Both the position numbers and the translations under genes were made by a program. The notes under the pieces are model-generated. The model saw only the letters and a list, made by a program, of their open reading frames with translations, was not told the DNA's origin and did no database searches. This document shows, piece after piece, positions 10,635-29,634 of a stretch of DNA of 64,000 nt. Location: assembly GCA_964291315.2 (NCBI GenBank), contig OZ219753.1, forward strand, positions 3,168,001-3,232,000. Direction: 5' to 3'. The number at the start of each line of letters is the position of its first letter. The first letter of the stretch is position 1. The DNA comes from Candidatus Poribacteria bacterium (lineage in GTDB: Bacteria > Poribacteria > WGA-4E > WGA-3G).

Positions 10635-11105
10635 ATGGCGAGAAAATCGCACGTTCAAACCGCTATTAATGGTGAAACGGTGGAATTTCTATGTGAGCCC
10701 CGGCAGAGTTTGCTGGAAATTCTCAGAGATGAACTCCACCTTACTGGTGCTAAAGAGGGATGCAACAACGGAAATTGTGGTGCCTGTTGTGTCATTCTCG
10801 ATGGCAGACTCGTCAATTCATGCTTGGTCTTGGGGGTCGAGACTGAAGGCAAATCCGTTGAAACGATCGAAGGACTTGCTGAACCCGAAAAATTGCACCC
10901 CATTCAGGAAGCTTTCCTCGAAAACGCAGCGCTTCAATGCGGTATCTGTACTCCGGGCTTTATCATGAGTGCGAAAGCACTTCTTGATAAAACCCCAAAC
11001 CCGACTGAACACGAAATTCGATACTGGTTGGCCGGAAATTTATGTCGCTGTACCGGTTACGATAAAATTGTTCGAGCTGTGCTCGACGCAGCCGCAGCTA
11101 TGTGA
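10635..11105 (+). CDS. Xanthine dehydrogenase / CoxS-family 2Fe-2S subunit
   Basis: [18 protein letters not shown] and [11 protein letters not shown] at 10635 follows an AAGGA RBS. Confidence 0.92.
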
Positions 11106-11135
11106 AAGGAGCGTCTCTCGACGAAAAAATAGAAA

Positions 11136-13391
11136 ATGGCTGATAACAAAGAATACAAAGTTGTTGGAACCCGACCTATCCGCCATGACGGCGTTGACAA
11201 GGTCACCGGCCGGGCTCTTTACGGGGCAGATTTTCAGATCACAGGACTCCTTCACGGCAGGGTGCTTCGGAGTCCACATGCCCACGCCCGAATCCTCTCA
11301 ATTGACACGAGTCGTGCCGAAGCTCTTCCGGGAGTCAAAGGGGCAGTCACTGCACAAGACTTGCCTACCGCTGAGGACAGAGTCGCAGACCTCGGTGAGG
11401 GAGCTGTCAATCTCAAATATCTCTGCGATAACATTTTAGCGAACGACAAGGTGCTGTACAAAGGACACGCAGTTGCTGCAGTTGCTGCGACGGACCCGCA
11501 CATTGCAGAAGAGGCATGCAAACTGATTGATGTTGAATATGAGGTGCTGCCCCCTGTGCTAGAGGTGCGTCATGCTATGGAGTCGGATGCGCCTCTCCTG
11601 CACGAGAATCTGAAAACTACTTCACTGGGTGAAACTGCTGAGGAACCGAGCAACATTGCAAGTCACATCCAACATAAAAAGGGCGATACTGAGAAAGGGT
11701 TCGCGGAAGCAGATGTCGTCATTGAACGGGACTTCGTTACAGGCACTGTCCACCAAGGCTACATTGAACCGCACAATGCCACGGCACATTTCAACCAAGA
11801 CGGTCAGCTGACCATTTGGTGTAGCACACAAGGGGCGTTTACTGTTCGTGAGCAGGTTGCTGAGATCCTCCACTATCCGATTTCTAAAATTAAGGTTGTC
11901 CCGATGGAGATCGGGGGAGGCTTTGGTGGCAAAATCAGCGTCTACATTAAACCGGTGGCAGCACTGTTAGCAAAGAAAACAGGCAAGCCGGTCAAGGTCT
12001 TGATGAGCCGCACGGATGTGTTTGAAGGTACAGGACCGACCCCGGCCTCTTACATCCGCGTCAAGATGGGGGCTACTAAGGACGGTAAGCTAACTGCGGC
12101 TGAGGCGTATCTCGCTTTTGAAGCGGGAGCTTATCCCGGCTCCCCGGTTGGCCCCGGGGCCATGTGTATCTTTGCACCTTACAACATTGAAAACGTCCTC
12201 ATTGACGGTTACGATGTTGTTGTGAACAAACCGAAAACCGCTCCGTATCGCGCACCGGGGGCAACAAACGCAGCTTTCGGTTCAGAGACAGTGCTTGACG
12301 AGATCGCCGAAAAGCTGGGCATAGATCCTCTTGAAATCCGGTTAATCAACGGTGCGAAAGAGGGGGATCGTCGTGCAGACGGTCCGGTTTACCCACGCAT
12401 CGGCTTCATTGAGTCAGTTGAGGCCGCGAAACAGCATCCACACTATGGCTCACCGAACGGGAAAAAGCACCACGGGCGTGGCGTTGCTTCTGGCTTCTGG
12501 TTTAACATCGGCTTGGAGTCGAGCGTGACGATTAATGTTAACGCCGATGGCACAATTAATCTCATTGAGGGGTCAACAGACATCGGCGGCACGCGCGCTT
12601 CCATCGCCATGCAAGCGGCAGAGGTTCTTGGTATCCCCGCGGAATCGGTGAACCCGAGCGTCGTTGACACCAATTCTGTGGGTTATACTGCTGTAACAGG
12701 TGGCAGCCGCACAACGTTCGCAACGGGGTACGCAGCGTATGAAGCAGCACAAGATGTTAAGAGACAGATGATCGATCGCGCCGCGAAACTCTGGGAGGTG
12801 GACGCATCCAAGGTCCAGTTTGCAGAGGGCGTATTTTCATCCATTAACGGCAAAGAGGAACAGATAAGTTTCCGTGACCTCTGCGCGCGTCTCGGTGAAA
12901 CCGGGGGTCCAATTGTCGGCAGCGGAACCGTAAATCCTGGGGGCGCTGGCGGTGCCTTCGCAACCCACGTTGTAGATGTGGCAGTAGACGAAGAGACCGG
13001 CAAGGTTGAAATTTTGCGCTACACCGCAACACAGGATGCAGGAAAAGCCATTCATCCGAGTTACGTTGAGGGGCAAATCCAAGGCGGTGTTGTTCAAGGC
13101 ATTGGCTGGGCATTGAATGAAGAATATATCTACAACGCCGAGGGTACGATGACAAACGCCAGCTTCCTTGACTATCGGATGCCAACCTGTTTGGACTTAC
13201 CTATGATTGATGCTGTCATTGTTGAGGTGCCGAATCCCGGGCATCCGTATGGTGTGCGTGGTGTCGGCGAAGTGCCGATCGTGCCACCGCCTGCTGCTAT
13301 CGCCAACGCTATCTACGATGCAATCGGCATTCGAATGACAGAGCTCCCGATGTCGCCAGATCGGCTTCTGAAAGCCATGGGCAAAATCTAA
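11136..13391 (+). CDS. Xanthine dehydrogenase-family molybdopterin-binding large subunit (not a form I CO dehydrogenase)
   Basis: GGGFGGK, APYRAPG active-site loop (not AYxCSFR), EGQIQGG and GVRGVGE. Confidence 0.9.
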   Translation: MADNKEYKVVGTRPIRHDGVDKVTGRALYGADFQITGLLHGRVLRSPHAHARILSIDTSRAEALPGVKGAVTAQDLPTAEDRVADLGEGAVNLKYLCDNILANDKVLYKGHAVAAVAATDPHIAEEACKLIDVEYEVLPPVLEVRHAMESDAPLLHENLKTTSLGETAEEPSNIASHIQHKKGDTEKGFAEADVVIERDFVTGTVHQGYIEPHNATAHFNQDGQLTIWCSTQGAFTVREQVAEILHYPISKIKVVPMEIGGGFGGKISVYIKPVAALLAKKTGKPVKVLMSRTDVFEGTGPTPASYIRVKMGATKDGKLTAAEAYLAFEAGAYPGSPVGPGAMCIFAPYNIENVLIDGYDVVVNKPKTAPYRAPGATNAAFGSETVLDEIAEKLGIDPLEIRLINGAKEGDRRADGPVYPRIGFIESVEAAKQHPHYGSPNGKKHHGRGVASGFWFNIGLESSVTINVNADGTINLIEGSTDIGGTRASIAMQAAEVLGIPAESVNPSVVDTNSVGYTAVTGGSRTTFATGYAAYEAAQDVKRQMIDRAAKLWEVDASKVQFAEGVFSSINGKEEQISFRDLCARLGETGGPIVGSGTVNPGGAGGAFATHVVDVAVDEETGKVEILRYTATQDAGKAIHPSYVEGQIQGGVVQGIGWALNEEYIYNAEGTMTNASFLDYRMPTCLDLPMIDAVIVEVPNPGHPYGVRGVGEVPIVPPPAAIANAIYDAIGIRMTELPMSPDRLLKAMGKI

Positions 13392-13756
13392 TTTACTCTC
13401 AATGCTACCGGGGTGGGGCCCGCCGCCTACCCCTACAAGTCAACCGAGTTGATAAAAACAGACAAACATCCGAAGTATGCCAACCGTTGCCATTCCCGCT
13501 CTCATGCGTAATCTTACAGACGGTGAAGAGAGCGTCTTGGTCTCTGGGACTACTGTCCGTGAAGCGATTGATAGCTTAGAAAGTCGCTACCCGGGTATCA
13601 AAGTTCGCTTGTGTGAAGGGGACCGTCTTAAACCCGGTATTGCCGTCTATATCGACGGTCTTCTCACCCGAGGGTCTCTCCGCGAACCGGTTAATGCGGA
13701 TGCGGAGATCCATTTCCTTCCTGCCATCAGCGGCGGCGCTGCCGAATCAACCTGTT
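13334..13756 (+). repeat. Direct repeat R1, copy a (last 18 codons of the xdh large subunit, intergenic region, moaD)
   Basis: Near-identical to 15589-16015, with a few substitutions and a 4-bp indel mostly in the 5' half. Confidence 0.95.
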
Positions 13757-13758
13757 AA
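13477..13758 (+). CDS. moaD: MoaD/ThiS sulfur-carrier protein, copy 1
   Basis: Ubiquitin-like fold ending FLPAISGG plus an AAESTC extension. Confidence 0.85.
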   Translation: MPTVAIPALMRNLTDGEESVLVSGTTVREAIDSLESRYPGIKVRLCEGDRLKPGIAVYIDGLLTRGSLREPVNADAEIHFLPAISGGAAESTC

Positions 13759-13869
13759 GATTGGTTATATGTAATCAGGCAAAAGATGGCGAATAGTCAA
13801 AAAAGTATCCCCACTATAATTCCAATCCTGATGACGAGTTGATGGAGTCCTCTTGGCAGCAATTTGATC

Positions 13870-14323
13870 TTATCGGTGCCTCGCTGACCTTCTACGGATA
13901 ACGGATGATGTGAGTACGTGCGGGCACCGCGTTGGTGGTCGGCTTCCTGTTTCTATCCCCAGCTTCCGGCCCGTCCGAAACAACGCAACGGGACACGTCG
14001 AGATTACCGGGATAACGCAGTCTGAACTCAATAACGCGGGGTTCAATATCCTACGGAGTAAGAGCAAGGCCTGCAAGTTCCCAGCGATTAACACAAAAGG
14101 GCTAATTGCTGGCCACGGCACGACACCCGAGAAGCATGTCTATACCTACACAGATACCACTGCGAAACCCATGGTCTATTACTACCAGATAGAAGCCATT
14201 TCTATGGACGGGGTGCGCACGATGTTACGGACGACGCATCTGCGTGGAAATGTCTCTGTGAGTGGTAACCTCACAACGTGTTGGGGTGAGCTGAAATCGC
14301 CAAATAGCAGACATAGCAGTTAG
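13870..14323 (+). pseudogene. Decayed C-terminal fragment of a large secreted protein (LPV-type Ig domain and a 'LTT.WGELK' C-terminal motif)
   Basis: LPVSIPSF, SELNNAGFNILRS, GHGTT, YTYTD, YYYQIE and LTTCWGELK. No signal peptide or clear start. Confidence 0.6.
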
Positions 14324-14547
14324 ACAACAAACTAACCTTACAAATCAATTAACCGAACGTAGAGGGCGGAACTCATGTTTCACTCCCCAACGTTTTTTAA
14401 CCACAGTCGCTGCCTGTTTTCTTTTCGGTGATCGAAAAAAAGCTAAACTTTTTGGACCGAAACGTATATATATAAATAATAAGGCGAAACATCACCGGAC
14501 GTGAAAGTATCCGGGAGTTTTGCACTACAAGAGGAAGGAGAAAACAA

Positions 14548-14865
14548 ATGAAAACGTCTTTGTTTCAAATGCTTGTGATTCTTAGCTTCCTTACCGTAGG
14601 TTTCATGACCGTTACGTCGTTTTTTCAAGAGAGTGGGGCAGATCCAAGCGAGGTTATACATGAGAGACACGAATATTGGAGGCGGTGTATAAACCTACCA
14701 AGTTCACCACAACTCCTGTTTATTCAGAATAAGGTCTATGCGAATGGGTGGCATGAAGGGGATCACTGGAGCAGCGGTGGAAACGACTCTGTGCCGCGCC
14801 ATCTTGTATCCATAATACGCAGAACGGTTTACCATCTCCGTTGGGTACGGTGTGAGGTCGCCTAA
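14548..14865 (+). CDS. Small secreted His/Cys/Trp-rich orphan protein (105 aa)
   Basis: Strong RBS (AAGGAGA), signal peptide ending ESGA, mature part with 2 Cys and several His. Confidence 0.7.
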   Translation: MKTSLFQMLVILSFLTVGFMTVTSFFQESGADPSEVIHERHEYWRRCINLPSSPQLLFIQNKVYANGWHEGDHWSSGGNDSVPRHLVSIIRRTVYHLRWVRCEVA

Positions 14866-14882
14866 ACCTTACCTTTTCTTTT

Positions 14883-14919
14883 TATAGGTAGGACTTGCCA
14901 GAGACAAGTTCTACCTATA
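14883..14919 (+). terminator. Intergenic hairpin between the peptide gene and its partner gene
   Basis: TATAGGTAGGACTTG...CAAGTTCTACCTATA inverted repeat. Confidence 0.6.
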
Positions 14920-14951
14920 TCTAATCTTTAAAATAGGAGGTATTCTTAGAA

Positions 14952-15593
14952 ATGAAACGAGTTTTTTTCACTGCCGGCGCTCTAATTTTTTTAGGCATCG
15001 CTTGGACGTTATTTCTCCGGTGGGATAGGATCCGTTTTGTGGAAAGCCTACCCAAAGCGCCCGTTCGCACTGATATCCAACACGCCACAGAACAGACTCC
15101 TCAAGATCTCATTGCTGAAGACAAAAGCAGCGATGCGCTTAGAGTCCAGAGAACACAAGATGAGTCTGCCCATATAGATGAGGAAACGCCTATAGACACA
15201 ACGGACAGGCCCTTGCATCACAATGAGACTCATTCGTACCGCCCCGAACTCACTTTTCGCCATGAGTCTGAACAAGGCATTGAAACTCTCAAACCAGAGA
15301 ATAAATCCCCAATTTTTGCTCCGGATCTCTCCGCAGAGGAACTCATAGAGATGGACCGTCAGAGCTTCGTAGAAAAATACGGTAATATTCCTGAGATAGA
15401 CATATTTTTCAAATATATGTCTCCTGTTTATGAAGCGTGGGCAGCTGGGGAAAGTCAGTTTACCGTTGACAGAACCAACGAAAAAATACTTGAGTTGAGC
15501 CGCGCACAGATGGTTTTGTATCCGGATAAGCCTTATTTTAGAAAGGAATACGAACGCGCGCTAAAAATATTGAAGGAGCAAGAACAACAATGA
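14952..15593 (+). CDS. N-terminally membrane-anchored orphan protein (213 aa), 'G(D/N)IPE' family
   Basis: AGGAGG RBS, single N-terminal TM, low-complexity linker, C-terminal EKYGNIPEI...AQMVLYP similar to the 239-aa proteins. Confidence 0.75.
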   Translation: MKRVFFTAGALIFLGIAWTLFLRWDRIRFVESLPKAPVRTDIQHATEQTPQDLIAEDKSSDALRVQRTQDESAHIDEETPIDTTDRPLHHNETHSYRPELTFRHESEQGIETLKPENKSPIFAPDLSAEELIEMDRQSFVEKYGNIPEIDIFFKYMSPVYEAWAAGESQFTVDRTNEKILELSRAQMVLYPDKPYFRKEYERALKILKEQEQQ

Positions 15594-16015
15594 CAGAGCT
15601 CCCGATGTCGCCAGATCGGCTTCTGAAAGCCATGGGCAAAATCTAATTTACTCTCAATGCCACCGGGGTGGGGCCCGCCGCCTACCCCTACAAGTCAACC
15701 GAGTTGAAAAAAACAGACAAACATCCATCCACAGTATGCCAACCATTGCCATTCCCGCTCTCATACGTAATCTTACAAACGGTGAAGAGAGCGTCTTGGT
15801 CTCTGGGACTACTGTCCGTGAAGCGATTGATAGCTTAGAAAGTCGCTACCCGGGTATCAAAGTTCGCTTGTGTGAAGGGGACCGTCTTAAACCCGGTATT
15901 GCCGTCTATATCGACGGTCTTCTCACCCGAGGGTCTCTCCGCGAACCGGTTAATGCGGATGCGGAGATCCATTTCCTTCCTGCCATCAGCGGCGGCGCTG
16001 CCGAATCAACGTGTT
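15589..16015 (+). repeat. Direct repeat R1, copy b
   Basis: Starts at AATGACAGAGCTC and supplies the TGA stop of the 213-aa gene. Matches 13334-13756. Confidence 0.95.
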
Positions 16016-16023
16016 GGAATTAG
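15736..16023 (+). CDS. moaD: MoaD/ThiS sulfur-carrier protein, copy 2
   Basis: Differs from copy 1 by V4I, M10I and D15N, and ends ...GGAAESTCWN. Confidence 0.85.
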   Translation: MPTIAIPALIRNLTNGEESVLVSGTTVREAIDSLESRYPGIKVRLCEGDRLKPGIAVYIDGLLTRGSLREPVNADAEIHFLPAISGGAAESTCWN

Positions 16024-16191
16024 TTTTAGGTATCGATGCAAAAAGCGCGCGTATGATCGGCGATTCTGCTTAAAAATGCAGGTAAAACCCCTAAAATTTC
16101 CTGATCACAGCTTTTCTTCGTAAAAAAAACGAATAAATTTGAAAAAAAATGGTTTTAAGGGCAGAATTATGCATTTTTTTGACAAATTAAT

Positions 16192-16220
16192 TTGACAAAC
16201 GCTTTTTGAAGGTGTATAAT
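16192..16220 (+). promoter_or_regulatory. rRNA promoter; boxA-like GTTCTTTGAAA at about 16253
   Basis: Perfect TTGACA-17 bp-TATAAT with an AT-rich upstream region. Confidence 0.85.
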
Positions 16221-16338
16221 TAACATTACCTTTCAATAGGAAAGGTGGTTTTGTTCTTTGAAAGTTAAATAGTGAACGTGACGTGCCTATTAAATAGCTT
16301 GTGAGTGCACTTCCATTGAGAAGATGTACTTCAATACT

Positions 16339-17997
<1,659 letters not shown>

Positions 17998-18073
17998 AAC
18001 AAATGTTCTAACACATCCTACCTTGCTACAACTTATCTTGCAAAGAACCTCCAATTAGAGGAGATCAATCAAC

Positions 18074-18847
18074 ATGTGGAAAGATGTTCTCTTCAACAAA
18101 CGTTTTTTTACTGGCCTCGTTTTTCTCACGCTTCTTATTGTAGGCAGCATCATCTGGTATGAAAGTGAAATACGCAAATTACGAAAGAGCGAGGCAAAAA
18201 CTCAGGTATTTCTCGACGCTTTAAAGAAAGACACCCTAGCTACCAAAGATGGTGAAGAGAATCCGGACTTGGCCATTTCACAGTCGGAAACCACAACAGC
18301 ACCTCTGGTGGTTGAAGAAAATGAAATGCAGACATTACAACAAGAGAATTTTATCAGGGACGATCAAAGTATGGAGACTGCGGAGCCCCTGAGAAACAGT
18401 AAGACTGGTGACATAATAGGTGAATCAAATTTAATAAATGACTTTCCAGAAGTTCCTGAAGGGTTTCCATCCGACCTTATTCCGGTTTGGGTTCACCTCC
18501 CGAATTATCAAAAAGGTGATATGTACGGACATGAACTGATGTATCGGGTTTTGATAAAACTCTGGAATCAGGGCGATCACGATTTTGTAAACGGCATCTA
18601 TAGCCACAATAATGGCCGCGTCTACCCACTCTGTAATGATGTGCTGTATGTTGAATGGGACGATGAGGTTGTTAATGGTAAAACTATTAGGTTTCCAGTT
18701 GCTACGACTGGAGCAATGGAATATCCCTTTACAATTGAGGAACAGATCACAGGAAGTTACTTAACGAAATATCCCGGCCTCAAGTTTGTTGATTGGCATC
18801 AGGCGGGATATGACCCTGAAACTTTTCTGAGTGCTGATGAAAAATAG
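18074..18847 (+). CDS. N-terminally membrane-anchored orphan protein (257 aa), 'MWKDVL' family
   Basis: GAGGAG RBS, N-terminal TM, acidic linker, globular C-terminal domain (FPEVPEGFP...ELMYRVLIKLWNQG). Confidence 0.75.
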   Translation: MWKDVLFNKRFFTGLVFLTLLIVGSIIWYESEIRKLRKSEAKTQVFLDALKKDTLATKDGEENPDLAISQSETTTAPLVVEENEMQTLQQENFIRDDQSMETAEPLRNSKTGDIIGESNLINDFPEVPEGFPSDLIPVWVHLPNYQKGDMYGHELMYRVLIKLWNQGDHDFVNGIYSHNNGRVYPLCNDVLYVEWDDEVVNGKTIRFPVATTGAMEYPFTIEEQITGSYLTKYPGLKFVDWHQAGYDPETFLSADEK

Positions 18848-18929
18848 TAGACACTGTGTCAAAAAGGTTATCCGACTTTTTTTGCAATTGATACGATCAC
18901 TGTCATGTTCAGTGCAACAGGGGAAAATT

Positions 18930-19036
18930 ATGATACGGAAACCTAGCTTCTCGGTTACATTATCAGTATTGCTGCTCACATTTTCTGTCACAGTTAGGTT
19001 AGGGGCATATGGTGTTTTTACCACTGCACATCGAAA

Positions 19037-19055
<19 letters not shown>
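18930..19055 (+). pseudogene. 5' stump of a signal-peptide gene, truncated by the 16S fragment
   Basis: AGGGG RBS and ATG, then MIRKPSFSVTLSVLLLTFSV..., running into 16S sequence at 19037 and stopping at 19055. Confidence 0.45.
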
Positions 19056-19842
<787 letters not shown>

Positions 19843-19904
19843 TCGGAACCTAGCTTCACAGACAGTAAACACTTTGTCTACACCCCTTAGGAAAAGGAGA
19901 AAGA

Positions 19905-20261
19905 TTGATGTTTTTCTTCACTCGTATGATGGTTATCCTCTATATGTTGAGTATCATATCATTTGCTTGGATACCGCATGCAGAAGCCGGCTGGGGCGTC
20001 GAGATCGTTACAGATATACATTCGCCGTGTTATGCATCCCACCCCGGGTATGGTAGCTACTATTGCGGCACTAAAACCAATACACGCTATGAGTATGAAA
20101 GTCCACCTGAGCCACCAGCTCATTATTGGTATTATCTTGATCGATATAATAGGCAAATTCCTGTACACGTTGAGCATCCACGAGAACGGCGAAATAAACG
20201 ATTAGTCATTTTTCGGAAAGAAAGCACTTGCATGGAATGCGATTTCGGTGTTGTCTATTAA
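19905..20261 (+). CDS. Small secreted Cys/His/Tyr-rich orphan protein (about 117 aa)
   Basis: AAGGAGA RBS, signal peptide ending HAEA, 4 Cys in the mature part including a C-terminal CxxC. Confidence 0.7.
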   Translation: MMFFFTRMMVILYMLSIISFAWIPHAEAGWGVEIVTDIHSPCYASHPGYGSYYCGTKTNTRYEYESPPEPPAHYWYYLDRYNRQIPVHVEHPRERRNKRLVIFRKESTCMECDFGVVY

Positions 20262-20270
20262 CATTTGACT

Positions 20271-20299
20271 CGTGCGGATAGAAGATTTCTATCCGCACG
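20271..20299 (+). terminator. Perfect 13-bp intergenic hairpin (second copy at 24167-24195)
   Basis: CGTGCGGATAGAA-GAT-TTCTATCCGCACG. Confidence 0.65.
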
Positions 20300-20317
20300 T
20301 ACTCGATTGGAGTTTTT

Positions 20318-21037
20318 ATGAAATTATGGATGGTTGCAGCAACCCTGTCTATTCTCTTGGCTTGTGGGTTCCTCGTTTATACAAAATGGGAAAAGCAGCA
20401 TTTTTTAGAAGGTATTCCGAAAAATCCGGGACTCGAAAATCTTCCGAAACATCGAGCTGTCGACTCTACGGAACCCTTTAAGACACAAGAGCTAAAAACT
20501 GAACAGAATACACAACGGCATCCGAGATTAATTTTTGAACATACTGAAGACAGAAACTATCAGATAGAATCCCCGGATGAACATGCCGCCCCAAATTGGG
20601 ATGACAACGAATCCCCCGCTGAACAAAGCCAGGACCCCTGGGGAGACATGATCGACAAGGAGCGGATCAAAGCACGTGGGGCTTATATCGAGGATCCGGA
20701 AAACATGGAACTCGGAGAACTTGTTGAGGCGGAACGTCAACAACTCATTGAGCGATTTGGAGATATTCCTGAAGTGAGTCTTTATACTTCTTTGAAACCA
20801 GGATACTTGGTTGGGAAACTAAATCTTGACGAACTGATAACTTTTCTCAAAGCCCAATATTCACTCTTTCCAAGCGAAAGTACTCGGAAGTCAATTGTCT
20901 TACGCGAATGGGAAAAATCGAGGGATGATAGAGGCGTTAGGCATCAAGATCCAACAGAGGCGGATCTAGAATATCTCAAATCCCAGGGTATTACTGTCAG
21001 AAGGACAAGAAACCGTTTAACGATTACCAGTGAATAA
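20318..21037 (+). CDS. N-terminally membrane-anchored orphan protein (239 aa), 'G(D/N)IPE' family, copy 1
   Basis: N-terminal TM and ERFGDIPEV...AQYSLFP. Confidence 0.75.
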   Translation: MKLWMVAATLSILLACGFLVYTKWEKQHFLEGIPKNPGLENLPKHRAVDSTEPFKTQELKTEQNTQRHPRLIFEHTEDRNYQIESPDEHAAPNWDDNESPAEQSQDPWGDMIDKERIKARGAYIEDPENMELGELVEAERQQLIERFGDIPEVSLYTSLKPGYLVGKLNLDELITFLKAQYSLFPSESTRKSIVLREWEKSRDDRGVRHQDPTEADLEYLKSQGITVRRTRNRLTITSE

Positions 21038-21166
21038 GAATTAGCGATTGCAAGCATATCGTTTTCGGAAACACTTTTGACAGCGCCACATTCCAGCAGA
21101 TCCAATTCCGCTTTCGGTTTCCGGCGATGACAATAGACAAGGTTGTAAAATTTAAGGACACATTGT

Positions 21167-21430
21167 ATGTTAAGGAAAAAGAACCTGCTTATAATAGGCG
21201 GGGTCTGTTTCCTCATAGGGGCTATTTTCCTTTATCTACACACTTCTTCCCGAAGAGTTAGCGAAGAAGTGAAGCCGCACCTTAAAAAGCTTTATGCCCT
21301 TTCGGGTGAACTGACTCTAGCACAAAAACTGGAATATATCGAGATAATGGCTGCCATTCAGGCCGTTCATAATCAAACGCCCCTCCCGGTGGAAAGATGT
21401 TCTCTCCAGCAAACTCGCTTTCAATTTTGA
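21167..21430 (+). pseudogene. Truncated copy of the 180-aa protein (first ~74 codons), fused to the tRNA-promoter segment
   Basis: Nearly identical N-terminus to 25063-25605 up to ...NQTPLP, then switches to the sequence found at 26124. Confidence 0.8.
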
Positions 21431-21455
21431 AAAACCCCATTTCTTAGGAATTAAT

Positions 21456-21484
21456 TTGACAAATCCTACTGCTGAGCGTATGAT
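21456..21484 (+). promoter_or_regulatory. Diverged copy of the tRNA-Ile promoter
   Basis: AATTAAT-TTGACA-17 bp-TATGAT-TAATATT; compare 26192-26220. Confidence 0.7.
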
Positions 21485-21559
21485 TAATATTGCGTTTTGC
21501 CAAGAACAGCTCGGCGGTCCTTCCCTAAAGACTGTCTTTTCTTCAAGATACCTCTCATA

Positions 21560-21612
21560 GGCTTATAGCTCAGGCAATTAGAGCACCCCTGATAAGCGCG
21601 AGGTTTCTGGTC
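21560..21612 (+). pseudogene. Degenerate tRNA-Ile(GAU) lacking the T-arm 3' side and acceptor 3' strand
   Basis: GGCTTATAGCTCAG-GCAA-TTAGAGC-ACCC-CTGATAAGCGCGAGGT-TT-CTGGT aligns to 26280-26333. Confidence 0.8.
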
Positions 21613-21671
21613 CACCGTGTGTTTATAGTTCGGCTGATTGTCTTTAACTAACAACAAAGGAGAACACTTTA

Positions 21672-22520
21672 ATGAAGCATTTACGTACACCCTATCGCCT
21701 GTTTATAGGTGCCCTGATTGTCTTTGTCGGCATCTTTGCTTTAAGGACGCTCTACCTCAGGCATGCTGAACGTGAGACGCAAGAAGCGATTAAATTGGCA
21801 CCGCTGCCGACAGGGACTATCCAAACCCCCTCTATAGAAGAAACATCAGAAGGCGGACGTTTCCGAACCGGCGGCGCAGAGCATGCACAACCGGGCGAAA
21901 CGACTCATTTAGATGAGGCAGAGACATCCTCACAAAAGACCATTGTTGAGAATACCACTAGTGTTAAGAAACAGCCCACTCCTCTTGAAATGAAACTGCT
22001 GGAGCGTGGGATTGACATTAGCAAATTACCGCGCGGGCCCAATGGGGAACTTCTTAAAGGAGCAACAGGCGGAATCGCACTCGTTCCCAATCCTGTTGCC
22101 CCTACACAGAAAGACATTGAAAGAGCTAAGAAAGATAGACAGCTCAGGGAATGCCTTGCAGAGATTGAAACGGAACTTCTAAAATTTCCGTCCGATGGCA
22201 CTATAGGCAAGGAACCGTTCCTCAAAGTCCTTGATTTGCAAGAAGAGAAATTCCGTATAGAACGAGAGTTGGGCGTTCAATTGCGAGGTACTGCTGATCC
22301 GATTATAGGGGTAGAAATCGCAAGACATGCGATGAACGTTATGACTGATGAGGGGATCCCCGTCTCTGGTGTCCCTCGTTTCATAGAATTATTTGAAGAA
22401 CTGGGGGCTTTGGAGTTAGCACGTCTGTTTCGGCTTGCTGCGGAGAATGCTGTTCGAAACGGTGAAGGTTTCTTTCATTCTCCGCTAGAAATACAACACG
22501 GAGAATCAGATGAACCTTAG
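21672..22520 (+). CDS. N-terminally membrane-anchored orphan protein (282 aa)
   Basis: AAGGAGA RBS, N-terminal TM, helical C-terminus. Confidence 0.7.
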   Translation: MKHLRTPYRLFIGALIVFVGIFALRTLYLRHAERETQEAIKLAPLPTGTIQTPSIEETSEGGRFRTGGAEHAQPGETTHLDEAETSSQKTIVENTTSVKKQPTPLEMKLLERGIDISKLPRGPNGELLKGATGGIALVPNPVAPTQKDIERAKKDRQLRECLAEIETELLKFPSDGTIGKEPFLKVLDLQEEKFRIERELGVQLRGTADPIIGVEIARHAMNVMTDEGIPVSGVPRFIELFEELGALELARLFRLAAENAVRNGEGFFHSPLEIQHGESDEP

Positions 22521-22621
22521 ATTTTTATTTATATGCCTTTTATTGATGGGCTCTTTTTTTAGTTTTGCCGATAACGAGTCAGGATTCTAGCAAGGCAGCC
22601 TTTTTAAAAGGAGATGACGGT

Positions 22622-24071
22622 ATGACACGATCGAAATACCTTTGGCTATTCTCTCTTTTAATCGTTTTAGCAATAATAGCCTTTTTTCTTTTTCGATTAC
22701 AGGAACCCTCTAAGAACGCTGCCGCCCCATCAAACCTGAAAACGACTGAAAAGAAGGTGCTCGGTAGTTTTGACAGTCAGACCCCAATGCAGACAACGCC
22801 CCTTAGCAACAGCACAGACGCATGGGAGACCTGGATCGAGAAACAAACCGAAGATCTCTTGAAGTTCGCCATTTCAGATTTGTATAAACAGATACCCGCT
22901 GCACAAACGCTTGAACCAGAACAGATTGAGGACATGAAAGCCAGCTTTCGGGCACAAATAGCAGAGCATGCGGCTCGACTGAAAAACGAAAGAACCGATC
23001 CGCCACCAATAAGTCCAACCTTCGAAACAACGTATAGGACCTCCGACTTTGAGAAATACACAGGTGCCCAAACGGTAGCGGCGATCATGGAAAAATATGA
23101 TGAAGGATACACTCGCTTCCATAAGGACACACTCGCGGACACAAAGTATCCAAGAGAGGAATGGCTCGCTATGCTGCTGGATCGCGGGATCACTATAGAG
23201 ACAATTCTGGACTATCAGAGCTACCTGCAGATACGCAAGGACTTAGCTCACTTGGAGAACAATCCGGGTGCCTGGGAATCGTGGGGGCACGGGGCGATCG
23301 CTCCAACGGACGACTGGGAAACCTACAAGTCTGCGTATACGGAACGGAAGATTTGGGAAGCCCAACAAGTTCAGCAAGCCCAGCGAGCAGATCCAAGCGT
23401 TGACGGCGGAATGTTTGGTGGGACGGATCGCAAAACGTTCCTTCCTATAAGGCACGACACCCTTTATGTCAAGCGACGCGGCATGAGATTCTCATTTTCT
23501 GGGGCACCCTTTAGAAATAAGACGCAAGAGTTTAACCTGATATTTCGCAGAGCCTGAGGGGTATGACATCATTTATCTGGATTCAAACGACAATATACTC
23601 AGCGAGCCGCCTCCGCCTATCACGCGGGAAGAGCTGATGAATGCGGGAGGTGCGGTGCTGCCAGAGGCGTGGTGGGAAGGCGACTTCAGCGAACAGTCCC
23701 TGACGGAGTTTCAAAGGGACGTTCCTATGCAAGAGATGCCTGAAACTCGGAGTGTAGAGGCTCCGCGTTTTGCTGCAGATGTCGAGCAAGAGATAAAGGC
23801 TCAGGTAGAGCAAGCACAACAGAGCACGGAGCGTTTATTAGAGAAGCTCACCCAGAGTGATGCTGATTTTCAGGAAGAGTTTAAGAAGCAGTTTCTGCCT
23901 GAGGTATCCGATGAGGGTTTTGAGAATACACTTCGGCGCCGTTTTTCACCGGAGCGTTTCAACGCGGCATTGCAGACGCTAAAACGTTATGGTCCTAAAG
24001 AGGGACTCCGTAAATTGAAAGAGGTTGATCCAGAAGTTGCGATACACTTAGAACGTTTAATCCAACGGTAA
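22622..24071 (+). pseudogene. N-terminally anchored orphan protein split by a frameshift near 23548
   Basis: ORF 22622-23557 ends ...FNLIFRRA. The +1 frame continues EPEGYDIIYLDSNDNILSEPPPPITREEL into ORF 23637-24071. Confidence 0.7.
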
Positions 24072-24085
24072 GGCGGAAAACACAA

Positions 24086-25285
24086 CGAAAGAAACGATTA
24101 GTCATTTTTCGGAAAGAAAGCACTTGCATGGAATGCGATTTCAGTGTTGCCTATTAACATTTGACTCGTGCGGATAGAAGATTTCTATCCGCACGTACCT
24201 GATTGGAGTTTTTATGAAATTATGGATGATTGCAGCAACCCTGTCTATTCTCTTGGCTTGTGGGTTCCTCGTCTATACAAAATGGGAAAAGCAGCATTTT
24301 TTAGAAGGTATTCCGAAAAATCCGGGACTCGAAAATCTTCCGAAACATCGAGCTGTCGACTCTACGGAACCCTTTAAGACGCAAGAGCTAAAAACTGAGC
24401 AGAATACACAACGGCATCCGAGATTAATTTTTGAACAGGCTGAGGACAGAAACTATCAGATAGAATCCCCGGATGAACATGCCGCCCCAAATTGGGATGA
24501 CAACGAATCCCCCGCTGAACAAAGCCAGGACCCCTGGGGAGACATGATCGACAAGGAGCGGATCAAAGCACGTGGGGCTTATATCGAGGATCCGGAAAAC
24601 ATGGAACTCGGAGAACTTGTTGAGGCGGAACGTCAACAACTCATTGAGCGATTTGGAGATATTCCTGAAGTGAGTCTTTATACTTCTTTGAAACCAGGAT
24701 ACTTGGTTGGGAAGCTAAATCTTGACGAACAGATAACTTTTTTCAAAGCCCAATATTCACTCTTTCCAAGCGAAAGTACTCGGAAGACAATTGTCTTAAG
24801 CGAATGGCAAAAATCGAGGGATGATAGAGGCGTTAGGCATCAAGATCCAACAGAGGCGGATCTAGAATATCTCAAATCCCAGGGTATTACTGTCAGAAGG
24901 ACAAAAAACAGTTTAACGATTACCAGTGAATAAGAATTAGCGATTGCAAGCATATCGTTTTCGGAAACACTTTTGACAGCGCCACATTCCAGCAGATCCA
25001 ATTCCGCTTTCGGTTTCCGGCGATGACAATAGACAAGAGTGTAGGATTTAAGGACACATTGTATGTTAAGAAAAAAGAACCTGCTTATAATAGGCGGGGT
25101 CTGTTGCCTCATAGGGGCTATTTTGCTTTATCTACACACTTCTTCCCGAAGAGTTAGCGAAGAAGTGAAGCCGCACCTTAAAAAGCTTTATGCCCTTTCG
25201 GGTGAACTGACTCTAGCACAAAAACTGGAATATATCGAGATAATGGCTGCCATTCAGGCCGTTCATAATCAAACGCCTCTTCCGG
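24086..25285 (+). repeat. Direct repeat R3, copy b
   Basis: Begins with a headless remnant of the peptide gene (KRLVIFRKESTCMECDFSVAY*). Confidence 0.95.
24214..24933 (+). CDS. 239-aa anchored orphan protein, copy 2
   Basis: 10 amino-acid differences from copy 1. Confidence 0.75.
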   Translation: MKLWMIAATLSILLACGFLVYTKWEKQHFLEGIPKNPGLENLPKHRAVDSTEPFKTQELKTEQNTQRHPRLIFEQAEDRNYQIESPDEHAAPNWDDNESPAEQSQDPWGDMIDKERIKARGAYIEDPENMELGELVEAERQQLIERFGDIPEVSLYTSLKPGYLVGKLNLDEQITFFKAQYSLFPSESTRKTIVLSEWQKSRDDRGVRHQDPTEADLEYLKSQGITVRRTKNSLTITSE

Positions 25286-25605
25286 ATGAGGAAGCTCGTC
25301 GTGTGTTGCAACATGCCTATACGCTCGTTATGTCAAACCCTGAACTTATTAAATTAGGCGGTATGATAGAGGATAAGGCACACGGCAACACCCATGAACA
25401 TAATTTGACCGAGCAAGAAAGGATACAAAAAAGGCTTGATGCATCGGTTGAAGATATCTTAAGCAATCCGATACCAAAACCACAAGGTTTTACGCCGCAG
25501 CGTTTTGAAAAGGCCACGCGAACCTTGGCAGAAAAAGGGATGCGCAGCCTCGAAAAAATAGATCCTGATATGGCGAAGTATCTTAAACAACTCATTACCC
25601 CCTGA
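25063..25605 (+). CDS. N-terminally anchored orphan protein (180 aa)
   Basis: N-terminal TM. C-terminal FTPQRF...GMRSLEKIDPDMA motif is shared with 23637-24071. Confidence 0.7.
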   Translation: MLRKKNLLIIGGVCCLIGAILLYLHTSSRRVSEEVKPHLKKLYALSGELTLAQKLEYIEIMAAIQAVHNQTPLPDEEARRVLQHAYTLVMSNPELIKLGGMIEDKAHGNTHEHNLTEQERIQKRLDASVEDILSNPIPKPQGFTPQRFEKATRTLAEKGMRSLEKIDPDMAKYLKQLITP

Positions 25606-25720
25606 AAAGAAAGGAAACCGAGCTGCCGAAGAGAGGGAAGGGGATCCGAAATTGGACATTTCACAGCCAGAACCCCTGACCGCACCTCTGGTGGTTGAAG
25701 CATTGGAATGGAGGCATTTT

Positions 25721-26059
25721 ATGAAGAAGATATTTCAAAATACAATCGATTCTCTTCATCTCTTTTTTGAGATGTCTTCGGAATGGAGACGTTTTACGAA
25801 GAAGGAGCCGAAGAAGAAGCCTCGGTTGGAACTCAGTTCTGCTGCGTGGAGTTTGGTAGGCACCCTCGGATATTTATTCGCTCGACTGGTCGATCACTGG
25901 TATCCGTTTCTGATTGCTGGTTTACTTGGTGTTGTGTTTTCTTTATTTGAGGGACCACACCCCCGCCCCAAACCAGCACGCGAGGCCTACGCAGAGTATC
26001 TGGCAAGGCGGCAAGAGCAGAAAAGGCAAAGAGACTCAAGTCGTAACCCGGAAAAATGA
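25721..26059 (+). CDS. Small two-TM orphan membrane protein (112 aa)
   Basis: GGAGG RBS before ATG 25721 and two hydrophobic segments. Confidence 0.55.
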   Translation: MKKIFQNTIDSLHLFFEMSSEWRRFTKKEPKKKPRLELSSAAWSLVGTLGYLFARLVDHWYPFLIAGLLGVVFSLFEGPHPRPKPAREAYAEYLARRQEQKRQRDSSRNPEK

Positions 26060-26191
26060 AGACGCATTTGCAAAGCATCGTAGACATCTTGTCAGAACCG
26101 AGTGCCTTGTTCACACGCCTCATGTGGAAAGATGTTCTCTCCAGCAAACTCGCTTTCAATTTTGGAAAACACTCATTTCTTACAAATTAAT

Positions 26192-26220
26192 TTGACAGTT
26201 CCTCTCTTAGAATGTATAAT
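26192..26220 (+). promoter_or_regulatory. tRNA-Ile promoter
   Basis: Perfect TTGACA-17 bp-TATAAT. It shares the upstream palindrome CAAATTAATTTG with the rRNA promoter. Confidence 0.85.
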
Positions 26221-26278
26221 TAATATTAGATTTGGCCAAAAAATAGGTGTTCTTTCCCTGAACATCTATATTCCTCAA

Positions 26279-26352
26279 GGGCTTATAGCTCAGACGGTTA
26301 GAGCGCGCGCCTGATAAGCGCGAGGTCCCTGGTTCGATTCCAGGTAAGCCCA
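26279..26352 (+). tRNA. tRNA-Ile (GAU); CCA not encoded
   Basis: Acceptor GGGCTTA/TAAGCCC, anticodon loop CTGATAA, T-loop GGTTCGATTCC. Confidence 0.95.
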
Positions 26353-26525
26353 CCTTCCTCCCTATCGCCCCCTTCACAGTCTATCTGCGGAGATTTTAAT
26401 TGAAGAAAAATATCTGGACTGGGTTTTAATACGTGCTACGATGAAGGCTAATCGTTCATACCCGTCCATATTCGGTATTGCTGCAAGCAAGTCTGAAATC
26501 TCTGACCTGTGAGGAGAAACGTTCT

Positions 26526-28052: not shown

Positions 28053-28203
28053 GCGTTTTCATCAGCGTGGGGTGTTGCGGTCTCTTTCAGTTATCCGTTT
28101 CCAATGAGGCGACTATGTGGTAGGCAAGCGGTTTTCAACAACCAACATTCTAACTGACGATTGAAACGAACGGAGCAAAAAGAGGGACAACTTGCAACGA
28201 TAA

Positions 28204-29628: not shown

Positions 29629-29634
29629 GCCAAA

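What the first reader, a model, noticed from the sequence alone, without database searches (positions are those of the whole stretch)
13334..26352. Integrase-free 'duplicate the target, insert cargo' architecture repeated around the rRNA locus
Seen three times with one geometry, [gene 3' end + downstream DNA]-cargo-[same segment starting mid-gene]: R1 13334-13756/15589-16015 (cargo 1.8 kb), R2 17192-17997/19037-19842 (cargo 1.0 kb) and R3 20190-21389/24086-25285 (cargo 2.7 kb). A fourth, more diverged duplicate covers the tRNA-Ile promoter and tRNA (21389-21612/26124-26333). All cargo is on the + strand and is secreted or membrane-anchored orphan genes. The copies are not identical. No integrase, transposase or reverse transcriptase is visible. 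Inference: the geometry fits single-crossover (Campbell-type) integration of small circles carrying 0.4-1.2 kb homology arms, including arms to highly conserved 16S/tRNA sequence. That would be a RecA-driven cassette-exchange system for surface or secreted proteins, and it would also allow precise excision.
Basis: partly seen in the sequence, partly recalled or inferred. Interest (0 to 1): 0.85.

Follow-up and report, generated by a model that had tools for sequence, protein, structure and literature searches.

The report
Recombination scars around the 16S gene
Three blocks of extra membrane-protein genes sit around this bacterium's only 16S rRNA gene, each bracketed by a duplicated piece of the neighbouring gene; this is the usual scar of DNA spliced in by the cell's own recombination, not a new kind of mobile element.

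Summary
Three direct-repeat pairs bracket unique DNA: R1 13334-13784/15589-16043 (95.6%), R2 17192-17997/19037-19842 (99.75%, a 3' 16S half) and R3 20190-21389/24086-25285 (97.6%). An older pair covers the tRNA-Ile promoter and tRNA 5' part (83-87%).

The structure is probably not an assembly artefact. Contigs built independently from four public runs carry the cargo/repeat junctions, including strains about 5% diverged. In the best run, cargo depth (867-998) is close to flank depth (907-1049).

Relatives G017 and G007 show all sites empty: XDH-ThiS-16S-tRNA-Ile.

No integrase, resolvase, rve or Ku hit exists anywhere in the 4.4-Mb assembly. RecA, ComEC and DprA are present.

Best reading: scars of one homologous crossover plus one illegitimate joint (Campbell-type or homology-facilitated integration). 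The geometry matches rhs/T6SS orphan arrays.

The "cassette-exchange system" is not supported:
- The 16S duplication occurs in 1 of 65 genus genomes.
- Cargo 1 begins with a pseudogene fragment.
- Excision could not be tested.

The scan had already logged the same scar type in four other genomes and judged it ordinary.

The parts
11136..13391 (+). 751-aa molybdopterin-binding subunit of the xanthine dehydrogenase/aldehyde oxidase family. Its last 58 nt lie inside repeat R1.
   Evidence: Pfam PF02738, PF20256 and PF01315. Syntenic in all relatives examined.
13334..13784 (+). R1 copy a (X1): XDH 3' end, ThiS-family gene (13477-13758) and 26 nt downstream.
   Evidence: ThiS PF02597.
13785..15588 (+). 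Cargo 1. It holds a broken fragment (13820-14429, stops and a frameshift) of the conserved C-terminal end of a roughly 30-copy family of 900-1000-aa proteins, then a 105-aa ORF (14548-14865) and a 213-aa ORF (14952-15593). The stop codon of the 213-aa ORF lies in R1 copy b.
   Evidence: No Pfam family.
15589..16043 (+). R1 copy b (X1'): starts 58 nt before the XDH stop. Its second ThiS copy (15736-16023) has 3 non-synonymous and 1 synonymous changes and has lost the stop codon.
   Evidence: G017 aligns without a break from here into the 16S gene.
16192..16220 (+). Consensus promoter (12 of 12) ahead of the 16S gene.
16339..17890 (+). The only full 16S rRNA gene of the assembly.
   Evidence: Rfam RF00177, 1539 bits. 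blastn against the genome.
17192..17997 (+). R2 copy a (X2): 16S nucleotides 854-1552 plus 107 nt of trailer.
17998..19036 (+). Cargo 2: a 257-aa gene (18074-18847) with an N-terminal helix, a disordered acidic linker and a conserved 135-aa C-terminal domain with no fold match.
   Evidence: An X21 contig covers 17968-19066 with 0 differences.
19037..19842 (+). R2 copy b (X2'): 5'-truncated 16S copy plus trailer, 2 mismatches to copy a.
19843..20189 (+). Unique spacer holding the start of a 118-aa ORF (19905-20261) with a signal-peptide-like N-terminus. Its last 72 nt lie in R3.
20190..21389 (+). R3 copy a (X3): tail of the 118-aa ORF, a 239-aa gene (20318-21037) and the first 74 codons of a gene that is 180 aa long in copy b (87-aa ORF, 21167-21430).
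21389..21611 (+). R4 copy a: duplicated tRNA-Ile promoter (21456-21484, 11 of 12) and a decayed 5' part of tRNA-Ile (21554-21611). A ribosome-binding site and the 282-aa gene follow directly.
   Evidence: ARAGORN calls no tRNA here.
21612..24085 (+). Cargo 3: 282-aa (21672-22520), 330-aa (22565-23557) and 144-aa (23637-24071) genes.
   Evidence: Contigs cross both ends.
24086..25285 (+). R3 copy b (X3'): starts inside the tail of the 118-aa ORF. It holds the second 239-aa gene (24214-24933) and the start of the 180-aa gene (25063-25605).
25286..26123 (+). 838-nt segment present only in copy b: the rest of the 180-aa gene and a 135-aa ORF (25652-26059). Positions 25606-25718 are 77% like part of the cargo 2 gene.
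26124..26354 (+). R4 copy b: consensus promoter (26192-26220, 12 of 12) and the intact, only tRNA-Ile(GAT) gene (26279-26354).

Best explanation
These are three, with R4 perhaps four, real and inherited chromosomal insertion-duplications at the single 16S/tRNA-Ile locus.

Proposed mechanism. In each event, DNA carrying a stretch homologous to the resident locus (X) next to foreign or paralogous DNA (C) entered by one RecA-type homologous crossover in X plus one illegitimate joint. That joint is the one between the right end of C and the mid-gene left end of X'. The substrate was either a re-circularised fragment integrating by single crossover (Campbell type) or a linear fragment integrating by homology-facilitated illegitimate recombination. 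The two routes give the same product. The likeliest donors are co-resident related strains.

Why the geometry recurs. Only fragments that include a gene end leave one intact copy of an essential single-copy gene (16S, tRNA-Ile). Selection, not a dedicated machine, therefore explains the repeated geometry.

What is shown and what is inferred.
- Shown: the repeats, the junctions in independent runs, the empty sites in relatives, and that no recombinase was found in the assembly.
- Inferred: the crossover mechanism, the inter-strain origin of the DNA, and transcription of cargo 3 from the duplicated tRNA-Ile promoter.
For: (1) Geometry. Unique DNA is flanked by direct copies of the target. The left copy continues the intact gene and the right copy is 5'-truncated. 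There are no inverted repeats or short target-site duplications.

(2) Empty sites. G017 aligns without a break from ThiS copy b through the 16S (window 15736-17989, 91.3%), then reaches the tRNA-Ile promoter after 86 nt. G007 has gaps of 212 nt and 57 nt. The outer flanks are therefore ancestral and the interior was added.

(3) Hotspot boundaries. The right ends of R1 and R2 (13784, 17997) lie within about 35 nt and 8 nt of where alignment with relatives stops (13747-13749, 17989-17990). X|C and X'|flank thus look like two alternative fillings of one variable slot. Only C|X' is a new joint.

(4) Real, not assembled in.
- Contigs cross 13784|13785 (X22), 21611|21612 (X21, X24), 24085|24086 (X22 with 28 differences in 590 nt; X24) and 25285|25286 (X24).
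- Cargo 2 is one 0-difference contig reaching 30 nt into both repeats (X21).
- X21 depths: flanks 1049 and 907; cargo 965, 867, 998, 879, 902.

(5) Enzymes. The assembly has 0 hits for PF00589, PF00239, rve and Ku. It has RecA, ComEC and four DprA-family hits.

(6) Divergence. It is 0.25% in the 16S part against 2.4-4.4% elsewhere. At 17460/19305 the truncated copy keeps the base of 6 of 6 outgroups and the working gene is the derived one. In R1, 10 changes fall on copy b, 8 on copy a and 4 are ambiguous. This fits two parental functional loci better than decay of a dead copy.

(7) Precedent.
- In E. coli conjugation, 56 of 60 recombinants were single crossovers of a circularised molecule that duplicated 109-950 bp of the homologous locus (PMC3240628, passages read).
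- The same X-C-X' layout is proposed for T6SS immunity arrays and rhs orphan strings (PMC5361080, passages read).
Against: - No donor sequence was found. No cargo has a copy above 80% identity elsewhere in the assembly, in 60 other genus genomes (best protein identities 36% and 49%), or in JGI metagenome contigs.
- No circle, excised allele or long read spanning a whole unit was seen. The contig data cannot show them.
- Two junctions (15588|15589, 21389|21390) are not among the listed pieces. Cargo 2's contig has 30 letters on each side, one short of the tool's 31-letter bridging rule.
- The polarisation counts are small: 2 sites in R2 and 22 in R1.
- R4 is far more diverged (13-17%) than the adjoining R3 (2.4%). 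The history is therefore mosaic, and later gene conversion could also explain the low 16S divergence.
- Competence genes are widespread (ComEC rings in 10 of 14 control genomes) and do not show that transformation occurs.
Confidence: 0.55

Rival explanations
1. In-situ replication or repair errors without incoming DNA. A fork or break at the heavily transcribed rRNA locus switched template, copied a stretch from elsewhere in the same genome, and returned upstream of the break. Alternatively, a plain tandem duplication later received an insertion at its join point.
For: - The genome makes local direct repeats far more often than inverted ones: 95 against 2 pairs within 20 kb.
- Cargo 1 starts with a fragment of a family that has about 30 copies in this genome.
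- The 113-nt similarity between 18223-18336 and 25606-25718 shows local patchwork.
- Three of the 6 unique-cargo repeat pairs in the assembly lie in these 13 kb, as expected for a fragile site.
Against: - No source copy of any cargo is found at a similarity comparable to X versus X'. The best DNA hits are 68-80% and short, and the best hits to the cargo 1 fragment are 75-79%.
- A simple backward template switch would duplicate the cargo too. No cargo is similar to its flanks (fractions 0.00-0.06).
- The model does not explain why the right ends of the repeats coincide with the synteny break points.
- About 1 Mb may be unassembled (4.4 Mb against 5-6.7 Mb in relatives), so a source copy cannot be excluded.
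Confidence: 0.2
2. One reading: a working RecA-driven cassette-exchange system. Small circles with 0.4-1.2-kb homology arms to conserved rRNA/tRNA sequence shuttle surface-protein genes in and out.
For: - Three events share one geometry within 13 kb.
- The cargo consists of N-terminally anchored or secreted proteins of fast-evolving genus-wide families.
- Direct repeats of this length and identity are substrates for RecA-mediated loop-out (general knowledge).
- The ThiS|16S and 16S|tRNA-Ile gaps differ between species.
Against: - The 16S duplication is unique to this genome among 65 of the genus, of which 55 had a match.
- No relative's locus examined carries such repeats (for 10 relatives).
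- Eight of 10 closed or nearly closed relatives have the same conserved genes in the two gaps, not shuffled cassettes.
- Cargo 1 begins inside a decayed gene.
- Homologues of the cargo genes in other genomes lie elsewhere, not at the rRNA locus.
- The junctions persist in strains about 5% diverged and across samples of three years.
Confidence: 0.07
3. An assembly artefact. Either two strain haplotypes were concatenated, or a small free circle (X+C) was threaded into the chromosome path by the assembler.
For: - The best run holds two variants of this organism, at depths of about 600 and about 430-470 (table 3).
- The repeat copies differ by amounts typical of strains.
- Short-word contigs give the same junction set for 'integrated' and for 'empty site plus circle'.
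- No listed piece spans a whole unit.
Against: - The cargo/repeat junctions occur in contigs built separately from four runs, including diverged strains.
- 0-difference cargo contigs have the summed depth of both variants (867-998 against flanks 907-1049), not half and not a plasmid-like excess.
- The minor-variant letters at 24468 and 24484 are not the letters of the other repeat copy, so the two copies are not simply the two strains.
- A mid-16S junction cannot arise from collapsing two collinear haplotypes.
- The assembly has 4 contigs, which suggests long reads that would span 1-4-kb units. That last point is an inference.
Confidence: 0.06
4. Remnants of integrase-borne islands that targeted the tRNA-Ile and neighbouring genes and later lost their integrase.
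For: A partial tRNA-Ile copy borders cargo 3. tRNA genes are classic island targets (general knowledge).
Against: - The duplicated part is the promoter and 5' 55 nt of the tRNA together with at least 1.2 kb upstream, not a short 3' att repeat.
- The repeats are 0.45-1.2 kb long and share no sequence between events.
- The cargo blocks are 1.0-2.7 kb and contain no phage, plasmid or recombinase domains.
- There is no PF00589 or PF00239 hit in the assembly.
Confidence: 0.04

Closest known systems
Campbell-type insertion-duplication: a single crossover of a non-replicating or re-circularised molecule carrying a piece of the target. It is used in insertion-duplication mutagenesis and was seen spontaneously in E. 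coli conjugation (PMC3240628, passages read).
   Same: - Unique insert flanked by direct copies of the homologous segment.
- One copy joined to the intact gene and the other truncated.
- No recombinase, att site or target-site duplication.
- Duplication sizes overlap: 109-950 bp there, 451-1200 bp here.
   Different: - These are natural, old events, with copies 0.25-4.4% diverged.
- They are stacked three times at one locus and involve the only 16S and tRNA-Ile genes.
- No circle or donor was observed.
Homology-facilitated illegitimate recombination in transformable bacteria: Acinetobacter, S. pneumoniae, P. stutzeri. The original papers are recalled, and were seen here only as references and a description in PMC5361080 and in the abstract of PMC3240628.
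   Same: - One homologous anchor plus one illegitimate joint.
- It needs only the cell's own recombination functions.
- RecA, ComEC and DprA are present.
   Different: - The classical outcome deletes recipient DNA, as PMC3240628 states was predicted. Here the illegitimate joint lies upstream of the anchor's end, giving a duplication.
- Microhomology at the joint cannot be checked without the donor sequence.
C-terminal displacement and orphan-module arrays at rhs, cdiA and T6SS effector-immunity loci (PMC5361080, passages read; the listing seen only).
   Same: - Layout is [conserved gene end]-new module-[fragment of the same conserved gene end]-old module.
- It is explained by an incoming allele anchored in the conserved part, with the old allele pushed downstream.
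   Different: - The anchors here are housekeeping genes (XDH/ThiS, 16S rRNA, tRNA-Ile promoter), not a polymorphic toxin core.
- The cargo shows no toxin or immunity domain.
- No array recurs across relatives.
Scars of the same type logged earlier by this scan in four other genomes: prfB, arfB, hscA and gatA/exbD.
   Same: A partial duplication of a housekeeping gene end brackets 1-2 kb of accessory DNA. All four were judged integrase-free recombination scars.
   Different: Those are single events. Here three or four are nested in 13 kb and include an rRNA gene. Those notes were not re-tested here.

Membership tests
Campbell-type insertion-duplication (single crossover) | Insert flanked by direct repeats that are copies of a single-copy chromosomal segment | tested here: met
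   Searches show the repeats. The segment is single-copy in the 16 relatives' loci examined and, for the 16S part, in 54 other genus genomes with a match.
Campbell-type insertion-duplication (single crossover) | Outer flanks collinear with an empty site | tested here: met
   G017 and G007 have XDH-ThiS-16S-tRNA-Ile, with only 57-212 nt in the gaps.
Campbell-type insertion-duplication (single crossover) | Circular intermediate carrying X plus cargo | not testable with these tools
   A circle has the same junctions as the integrated form. Only contigs were available, not raw long reads.
Homology-facilitated illegitimate recombination | Illegitimate joint at a short microhomology between donor and recipient | tested here: inconclusive
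   The junction sequences were read. Without the donor sequence the microhomology cannot be scored.
Homology-facilitated illegitimate recombination | DNA uptake and RecA functions present | tested here: met
   ComEC, DprA-family (4 hits) and RecA are present. Presence only; activity is unknown.
Integron / gene cassette | IntI-type tyrosine recombinase and attC-like imperfect inverted repeats at cassette ends | tested here: not met
   There are 0 PF00589 hits in the assembly and 0 inverted repeats of 60 nt or more in 11000-29000. Shorter attC-like sites were not modelled.
tRNA-targeting genomic island | Integrase gene, plus a short direct repeat of the tRNA 3' end at the far border | tested here: not met
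   There is no integrase. The duplicated part is the promoter and 5' 55 nt of the tRNA plus at least 1.2 kb upstream.
Transposon / insertion sequence | Transposase, terminal inverted repeats, short target-site duplication | tested here: not met
   No rve hit. There are two weak DDE_Tnp_1 hits, both outside the window. No inverted repeats. The repeats are 451-1200 nt long.
rhs/CDI/T6SS orphan arrays (C-terminal displacement) | Repeated fragment belongs to a polymorphic-toxin core gene and the modules are toxin-immunity pairs | tested here: not met
   The anchors are XDH/ThiS, 16S and the tRNA-Ile promoter. The cargo has no Pfam family.

The most novel reading that the evidence does not exclude
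The rRNA/tRNA locus serves as a universal landing pad. Small promoter-less gene blocks, armed with a piece of near-invariant 16S or tRNA sequence, spread between strains by DNA uptake and RecA alone. They land behind the cell's strongest promoters and can loop out again. This would be an integrase-free analogue of an integron for surface proteins in uncultured symbionts.
Probability: 0.07. Interest if true: 0.75.

Novelty: new member of a known kind. Interest (0 to 1): 0.3.

Why it matters
- It is a clean natural example of gene gain with no mobile-element enzyme. Accessory membrane-protein genes were added by ordinary recombination, even inside an rRNA transcription unit, and the essential 16S and tRNA-Ile genes stayed intact.
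- It warns that a near-identical half-copy of 16S can sit in a genome. That matters for amplicon counts, for chimera filters, and for judging long-read MAGs, where such repeats are easily taken for misassemblies.
- The duplicated near-consensus tRNA-Ile promoter in front of cargo 3 suggests how newly arrived genes can acquire strong expression.
- It does not open a new class of system.

Tried and rejected
- **Empty-site alleles in the runs.** Joints 17898->26279, 19743->26279 and 19743->26288 link the 16S end to the tRNA-Ile start. They have depths of 94-775 and 26-51 letters on the shorter side. They may come from any bacterium with a normal 16S-tRNA-Ile spacer, so they were not used.
- **Other weak joints.** Joints 18012->25703 (X24, depth 27, 28 letters on the shorter side) and 18012->19706 (X23, 27 letters on the shorter side) fall under the tool's warning for sides below 30 at likeness 93. 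They were not used.
- **X21 depth dip.** The X21 bin 24600-25083 has depth 16.6. The tool says a hole proves nothing, so it was not used.
- **X23 contig.** A 1602-nt contig joins 78 nt matching 26045-26122 to 21435-22250. The R4a copy therefore has a longer b-like left edge in another strain. About 709 nt of that contig match nothing here, so this is only a hint that the 838-nt gap in copy a is a later deletion.
- **Donor search.**
  - The search for related loci with the 257-aa protein in JGI metagenome contigs found no relative.
  - blastn of all cargo blocks against the assembly gave only distant paralogues.
  - tblastn of the cargo proteins against the 16 relatives' loci hit only ThiS.
- **Cargo function.**
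  - Pfam found no family above cut-off.
  - ESM Atlas gave no usable hit for the 330- and 257-aa proteins.
  - The AlphaFold model of the 257-aa protein has pLDDT 67, with the C-terminal domain at 79-94.
  - Foldseek against PDB found nothing at E <= 0.001.
  - VIA-align matched only the N-terminal helix, at Z about 6. The C-terminal domain was not searched alone.
- **Simple tandem duplication of [X+C].** Rejected, because the sequence after X' is not cargo-like.
- **Census of other repeat pairs.** Of 29 high-identity local repeat pairs, 23 are tandem paralogue arrays or tandem mod alleles by the flank-similarity test.
- **Redundant call.** One search repeated part and added nothing.
- **Literature.** Searches for Poribacteria long-read genomes and for unlinked rRNA gave listings only, and none was read. 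The search for natural insertion-duplication found nothing relevant. I therefore make no claim that such a 16S scar is or is not in print.
- **Taxonomy.** The organism was not checked.

Full report
**Observation**

A self-comparison of the window confirms four direct-repeat pairs at the stated places:
- R1: 13334-13784 / 15589-16043, 95.6% over 456 columns.
- R2: 17192-17997 / 19037-19842, 99.75%, 2 mismatches.
- R3: 20190-21389 / 24086-25285, 97.6%, 29 mismatches.
- R4: 21389-21491 / 26124-26227 at 86.8%, plus 21554-21611 / 26274-26333 at 83.3%.

No inverted repeat of 60 nt or more lies in 11000-29000.

Rfam finds one complete 16S (16339-17890) and one partial copy. By blastn the partial copy begins at nucleotide 854 of 1552. 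There is one tRNA-Ile(GAT), at 26279-26354. It is the only one in the assembly, as is the 16S.

Each right-hand copy begins inside a gene: 58 nt before the stop of a 751-aa XDH-family gene, mid-16S, and 72 nt before the stop of a 118-aa ORF.

**Anatomy**

On the + strand the order is:
1. XDH, then X1 (ThiS-a).
2. Cargo 1.
3. X1' (ThiS-b), the 16S promoter, and the 16S gene, whose 3' half is X2.
4. Cargo 2.
5. X2', the truncated 16S.
6. A 347-nt spacer.
7. X3.
8. R4a, a copied tRNA-Ile promoter with a decayed tRNA 5' part.
9. Cargo 3.
10. X3'.
11. An 838-nt segment absent from copy a.
12. R4b, the promoter and intact tRNA-Ile, followed by an ABC-2 permease array.

Pfam names only XDH, ThiS and the permeases. 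No cargo ORF has a family.

Read from the translations, eight cargo and repeat gene products start with a hydrophobic stretch. No predictor was run.

The cargo genes are not orphans. The 330-aa protein has relatives in 60 of 61 genus genomes and the 257-aa protein in 45 of 61, in many copies and at other places. The best identities outside this genome are 36% and 49%.

The first 0.6 kb of cargo 1 is a broken fragment, with stops and a frameshift. It matches the conserved C-terminal end of a roughly 30-copy family of 900-1000-aa proteins. That cargo therefore begins in the middle of a dead gene.

The three best promoter matches in 13000-26600 are:
- the 16S promoter (12 of 12);
- the tRNA-Ile promoter (12 of 12);
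- the copy of the tRNA-Ile promoter at 21456-21484 (11 of 12), which is followed by a ribosome-binding site and the first gene of cargo 3.

**Is it an assembly artefact?**

The window lies in a 3.26-Mb contig of a 4-contig, 4.40-Mb assembly.

Four runs of one study hold the stretch, with word shares of 0.87, 0.65, 0.42 and 0.39. Their independently built contigs were laid on 12500-27000.

Contigs cross these junctions:

| Junction | Run(s) | Detail |
|---|---|---|
| 13784\|13785 | X22 | 1 difference |
| 21611\|21612 | X21, X24 | 0 and 26 differences |
| 24085\|24086 | X22, X24 | 28 differences in 590 nt; 12 in 356 |
| 25285\|25286 | X24 | |

Cargo 2 is one 0-difference contig, 17968-19066 in X21. 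It reaches 30 letters into both repeats, one short of the tool's 31-letter bridging rule. I take this to be where a graph of 31-letter words must break.

Junctions 15588|15589 and 21389|21390 are not among the listed pieces.

In X21 the 0-difference contigs have these depths:
- flanks: 1049 and 907;
- 16S 5' part: 1001;
- cargo: 965, 867, 998, 879, 902.

Cargo depth is therefore neither halved nor in excess. X21 holds two variants, at about 600 and about 430-470, and both carry the cargo. The minor letters at 24468 and 24484 are not those of the other repeat copy.

The junctions are therefore real and shared by strains about 5% apart.

The limits of this test are as follows. No piece spans a whole unit. 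Short-word contigs cannot tell 'integrated' from 'empty site plus free circle', and they cannot show an excised allele, because neither form creates a new junction.

**Relatives**

I examined sixteen loci from fifteen relatives of the same genus. Ten of these relatives are closed or nearly closed genomes.

- G017 has the closest XDH (84%). It aligns without a break from ThiS through the 16S (window 15736-17989) and reaches the tRNA-Ile promoter 86 nt later.
- G007 has gaps of 212 nt and 57 nt.
- Both therefore show all sites empty.
- Eight of the ten closed or nearly closed relatives carry the same three genes between ThiS and the 16S. All but G004 also carry one 211-275-aa secreted-protein gene between the 16S and tRNA-Ile. 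The two gaps vary between species but are not shuffled.
- No relative has a second ThiS, a partial 16S or a partial tRNA-Ile copy, and none has a homologue of the window's cargo at this locus.
- Across 65 genus genomes, 55 with a match, only this one has two full-length matches to the 16S 3' half. The four other double matches are contig-end pieces or, in G063, a 78% match.

Alignment with relatives stops at 13747-13749 and 17989-17990, close to the right ends of R1 and R2. X|cargo and X'|flank therefore look like two alternative fillings of one variable slot. Only the joint between the cargo's right end and the mid-gene start of X' is new.

**Enzymes**

- The assembly has no hit for tyrosine recombinases, serine recombinases, rve or Ku.
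- It has two weak DDE_Tnp_1 hits and two reverse transcriptases, all far from the window.
- It has RecA, ComEC and four DprA-family hits.
- Because 25 of 25 relatives have at least one Xer-like gene, and relatives are 5-6.7 Mb, the missing Xer probably lies in unassembled DNA. 'No integrase' holds for what is assembled.

**Mechanism**

The layout is that of an insertion-duplication: one homologous crossover in X plus one illegitimate joint. A re-circularised fragment integrating by single crossover and a linear fragment integrating by homology-facilitated illegitimate recombination give the same product. I cannot separate the two.

Experimental precedent exists. In E. coli conjugation, 56 of 60 recombinants were single crossovers of a circularised molecule that duplicated 109-950 bp of the homologous locus (PMC3240628, passages read).

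The same X-C-X' layout is the accepted picture for T6SS immunity arrays and for rhs orphan strings (PMC5361080, passages read).

The shared geometry needs no dedicated machine. With single-copy essential targets, only fragments that include a gene end leave one intact copy.

An inter-strain origin is suggested by three observations, but not proven:
- Divergence is 0.25% in the 16S part against 2.4-4.4% elsewhere.
- At 17460/19305 the truncated copy keeps the base of 6 of 6 outgroups and the working gene is the derived one.
- Changes in R1 are nearly symmetric: 10 on copy b, 8 on copy a, 4 ambiguous.

Against this, the counts are small. R4 is far older than the adjoining R3, so gene conversion has acted. 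No donor was found. ThiS-b shows relaxed constraint, with 3 non-synonymous changes, 1 synonymous change and a lost stop codon. The two 239-aa copies differ by 10 non-synonymous and 5 synonymous codons.

**How special is the locus?**

The genome has 95 local direct repeat pairs against 2 inverted pairs. Of the 29 pairs at 93% identity or more with 0.3-10 kb between them, 23 are tandem paralogue arrays or tandem mod alleles by a flank-similarity test. Six have unique cargo, and three of those six are at this locus.

The clustering is real. A fragile, heavily transcribed site is one explanation. The long, highly conserved homology that rRNA and tRNA genes offer to incoming DNA is another.

**Comparison and verdict**

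This is a member of a known kind, the integrase-free insertion-duplication scar. It is not an integron, a tRNA island, a transposon or a toxin-array locus. Each of those fails a defining feature that I tested.

The scan had already logged single scars of this type in four other genomes and judged them ordinary. I did not re-test those notes.

What is unusual here:
- Three to four events are stacked in 13 kb.
- A near-identical half-copy of the 16S gene is present.
- Protein genes lie inside the 16S-tRNA-Ile unit.
- A captured strong promoter sits ahead of cargo 3.

The cassette-exchange reading remains possible but unsupported. I give it about 7%.

Noticed in passing
Loci L014-L021 (G004, G024, G018, G014, G016, G002, G008, G006); in the window, compare 17998-26123: In 7 of 10 closed or nearly closed relatives, a 211-275-aa secreted-protein gene (N-terminal motif like EILFVDDFEQDKIGEEP) lies between the 16S gene and tRNA-Ile. 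All 8 genomes listed here carry a conserved three-gene set between ThiS and the 16S; G004 has that set but only 242 nt between the 16S and tRNA-Ile. No 23S rRNA gene was found in the 64-kb window, so the 16S is unlinked from the 23S here.
   Followed up: partly
whole assembly G000: There is no tyrosine recombinase hit (not even Xer) and no resolvase, rve or Ku hit in the 4.4-Mb assembly. In contrast, 25 of 25 genus relatives have at least one Xer-like gene. The gene is probably in unassembled DNA, since relatives are 5-6.7 Mb.
   Followed up: partly
window 13820-14429; about 30 places in G000, e.g. C4:59696-60217 and C1:376414-376979: A roughly 30-copy family of 900-1000-aa proteins shares a conserved C-terminal domain of about 165 aa (…GYRLGGPLPVSLSSFRPVRN…KLTTRWGELKS). 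The copies often stand as tandem pairs about 2.85 kb apart. The fragment tested has no Pfam family.
   Followed up: partly
window 26478-32540: A tandem array of ABC-2-type permease gene pairs follows the tRNA-Ile. The paralogous units are 71-82% alike, and relatives carry three or more such units.
   Followed up: no
G000 C4:2788296-2794615 (outside the window): Two tandem Type III mod alleles stand next to one Res gene (PF04851). One is an intact 577-aa gene. The second copy is split into 325 and 214 aa, with near-identical ends (99.1%) and a different middle.
   Followed up: partly
G000 C4:493933-500618 and C3:29211-32769 (outside the window): Two 368-aa reverse-transcriptase genes each lie beside 0.5-1.2-kb direct repeats of 85-93% identity. 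This could be diversity-generating retroelements.
   Followed up: no
G000 C1:217440-222737 (outside the window): This is another repeat pair with unique cargo. Mostly intergenic repeats of about 470 nt (93%) bracket 4.35 kb holding four membrane-protein ORFs.
   Followed up: no
window 18223-18336 and 25606-25718: A 113-nt stretch of the cargo 2 gene's linker region recurs at 77% identity just before and into the 135-aa ORF upstream of tRNA-Ile. It looks like a remnant of an older family member at that site.
   Followed up: no
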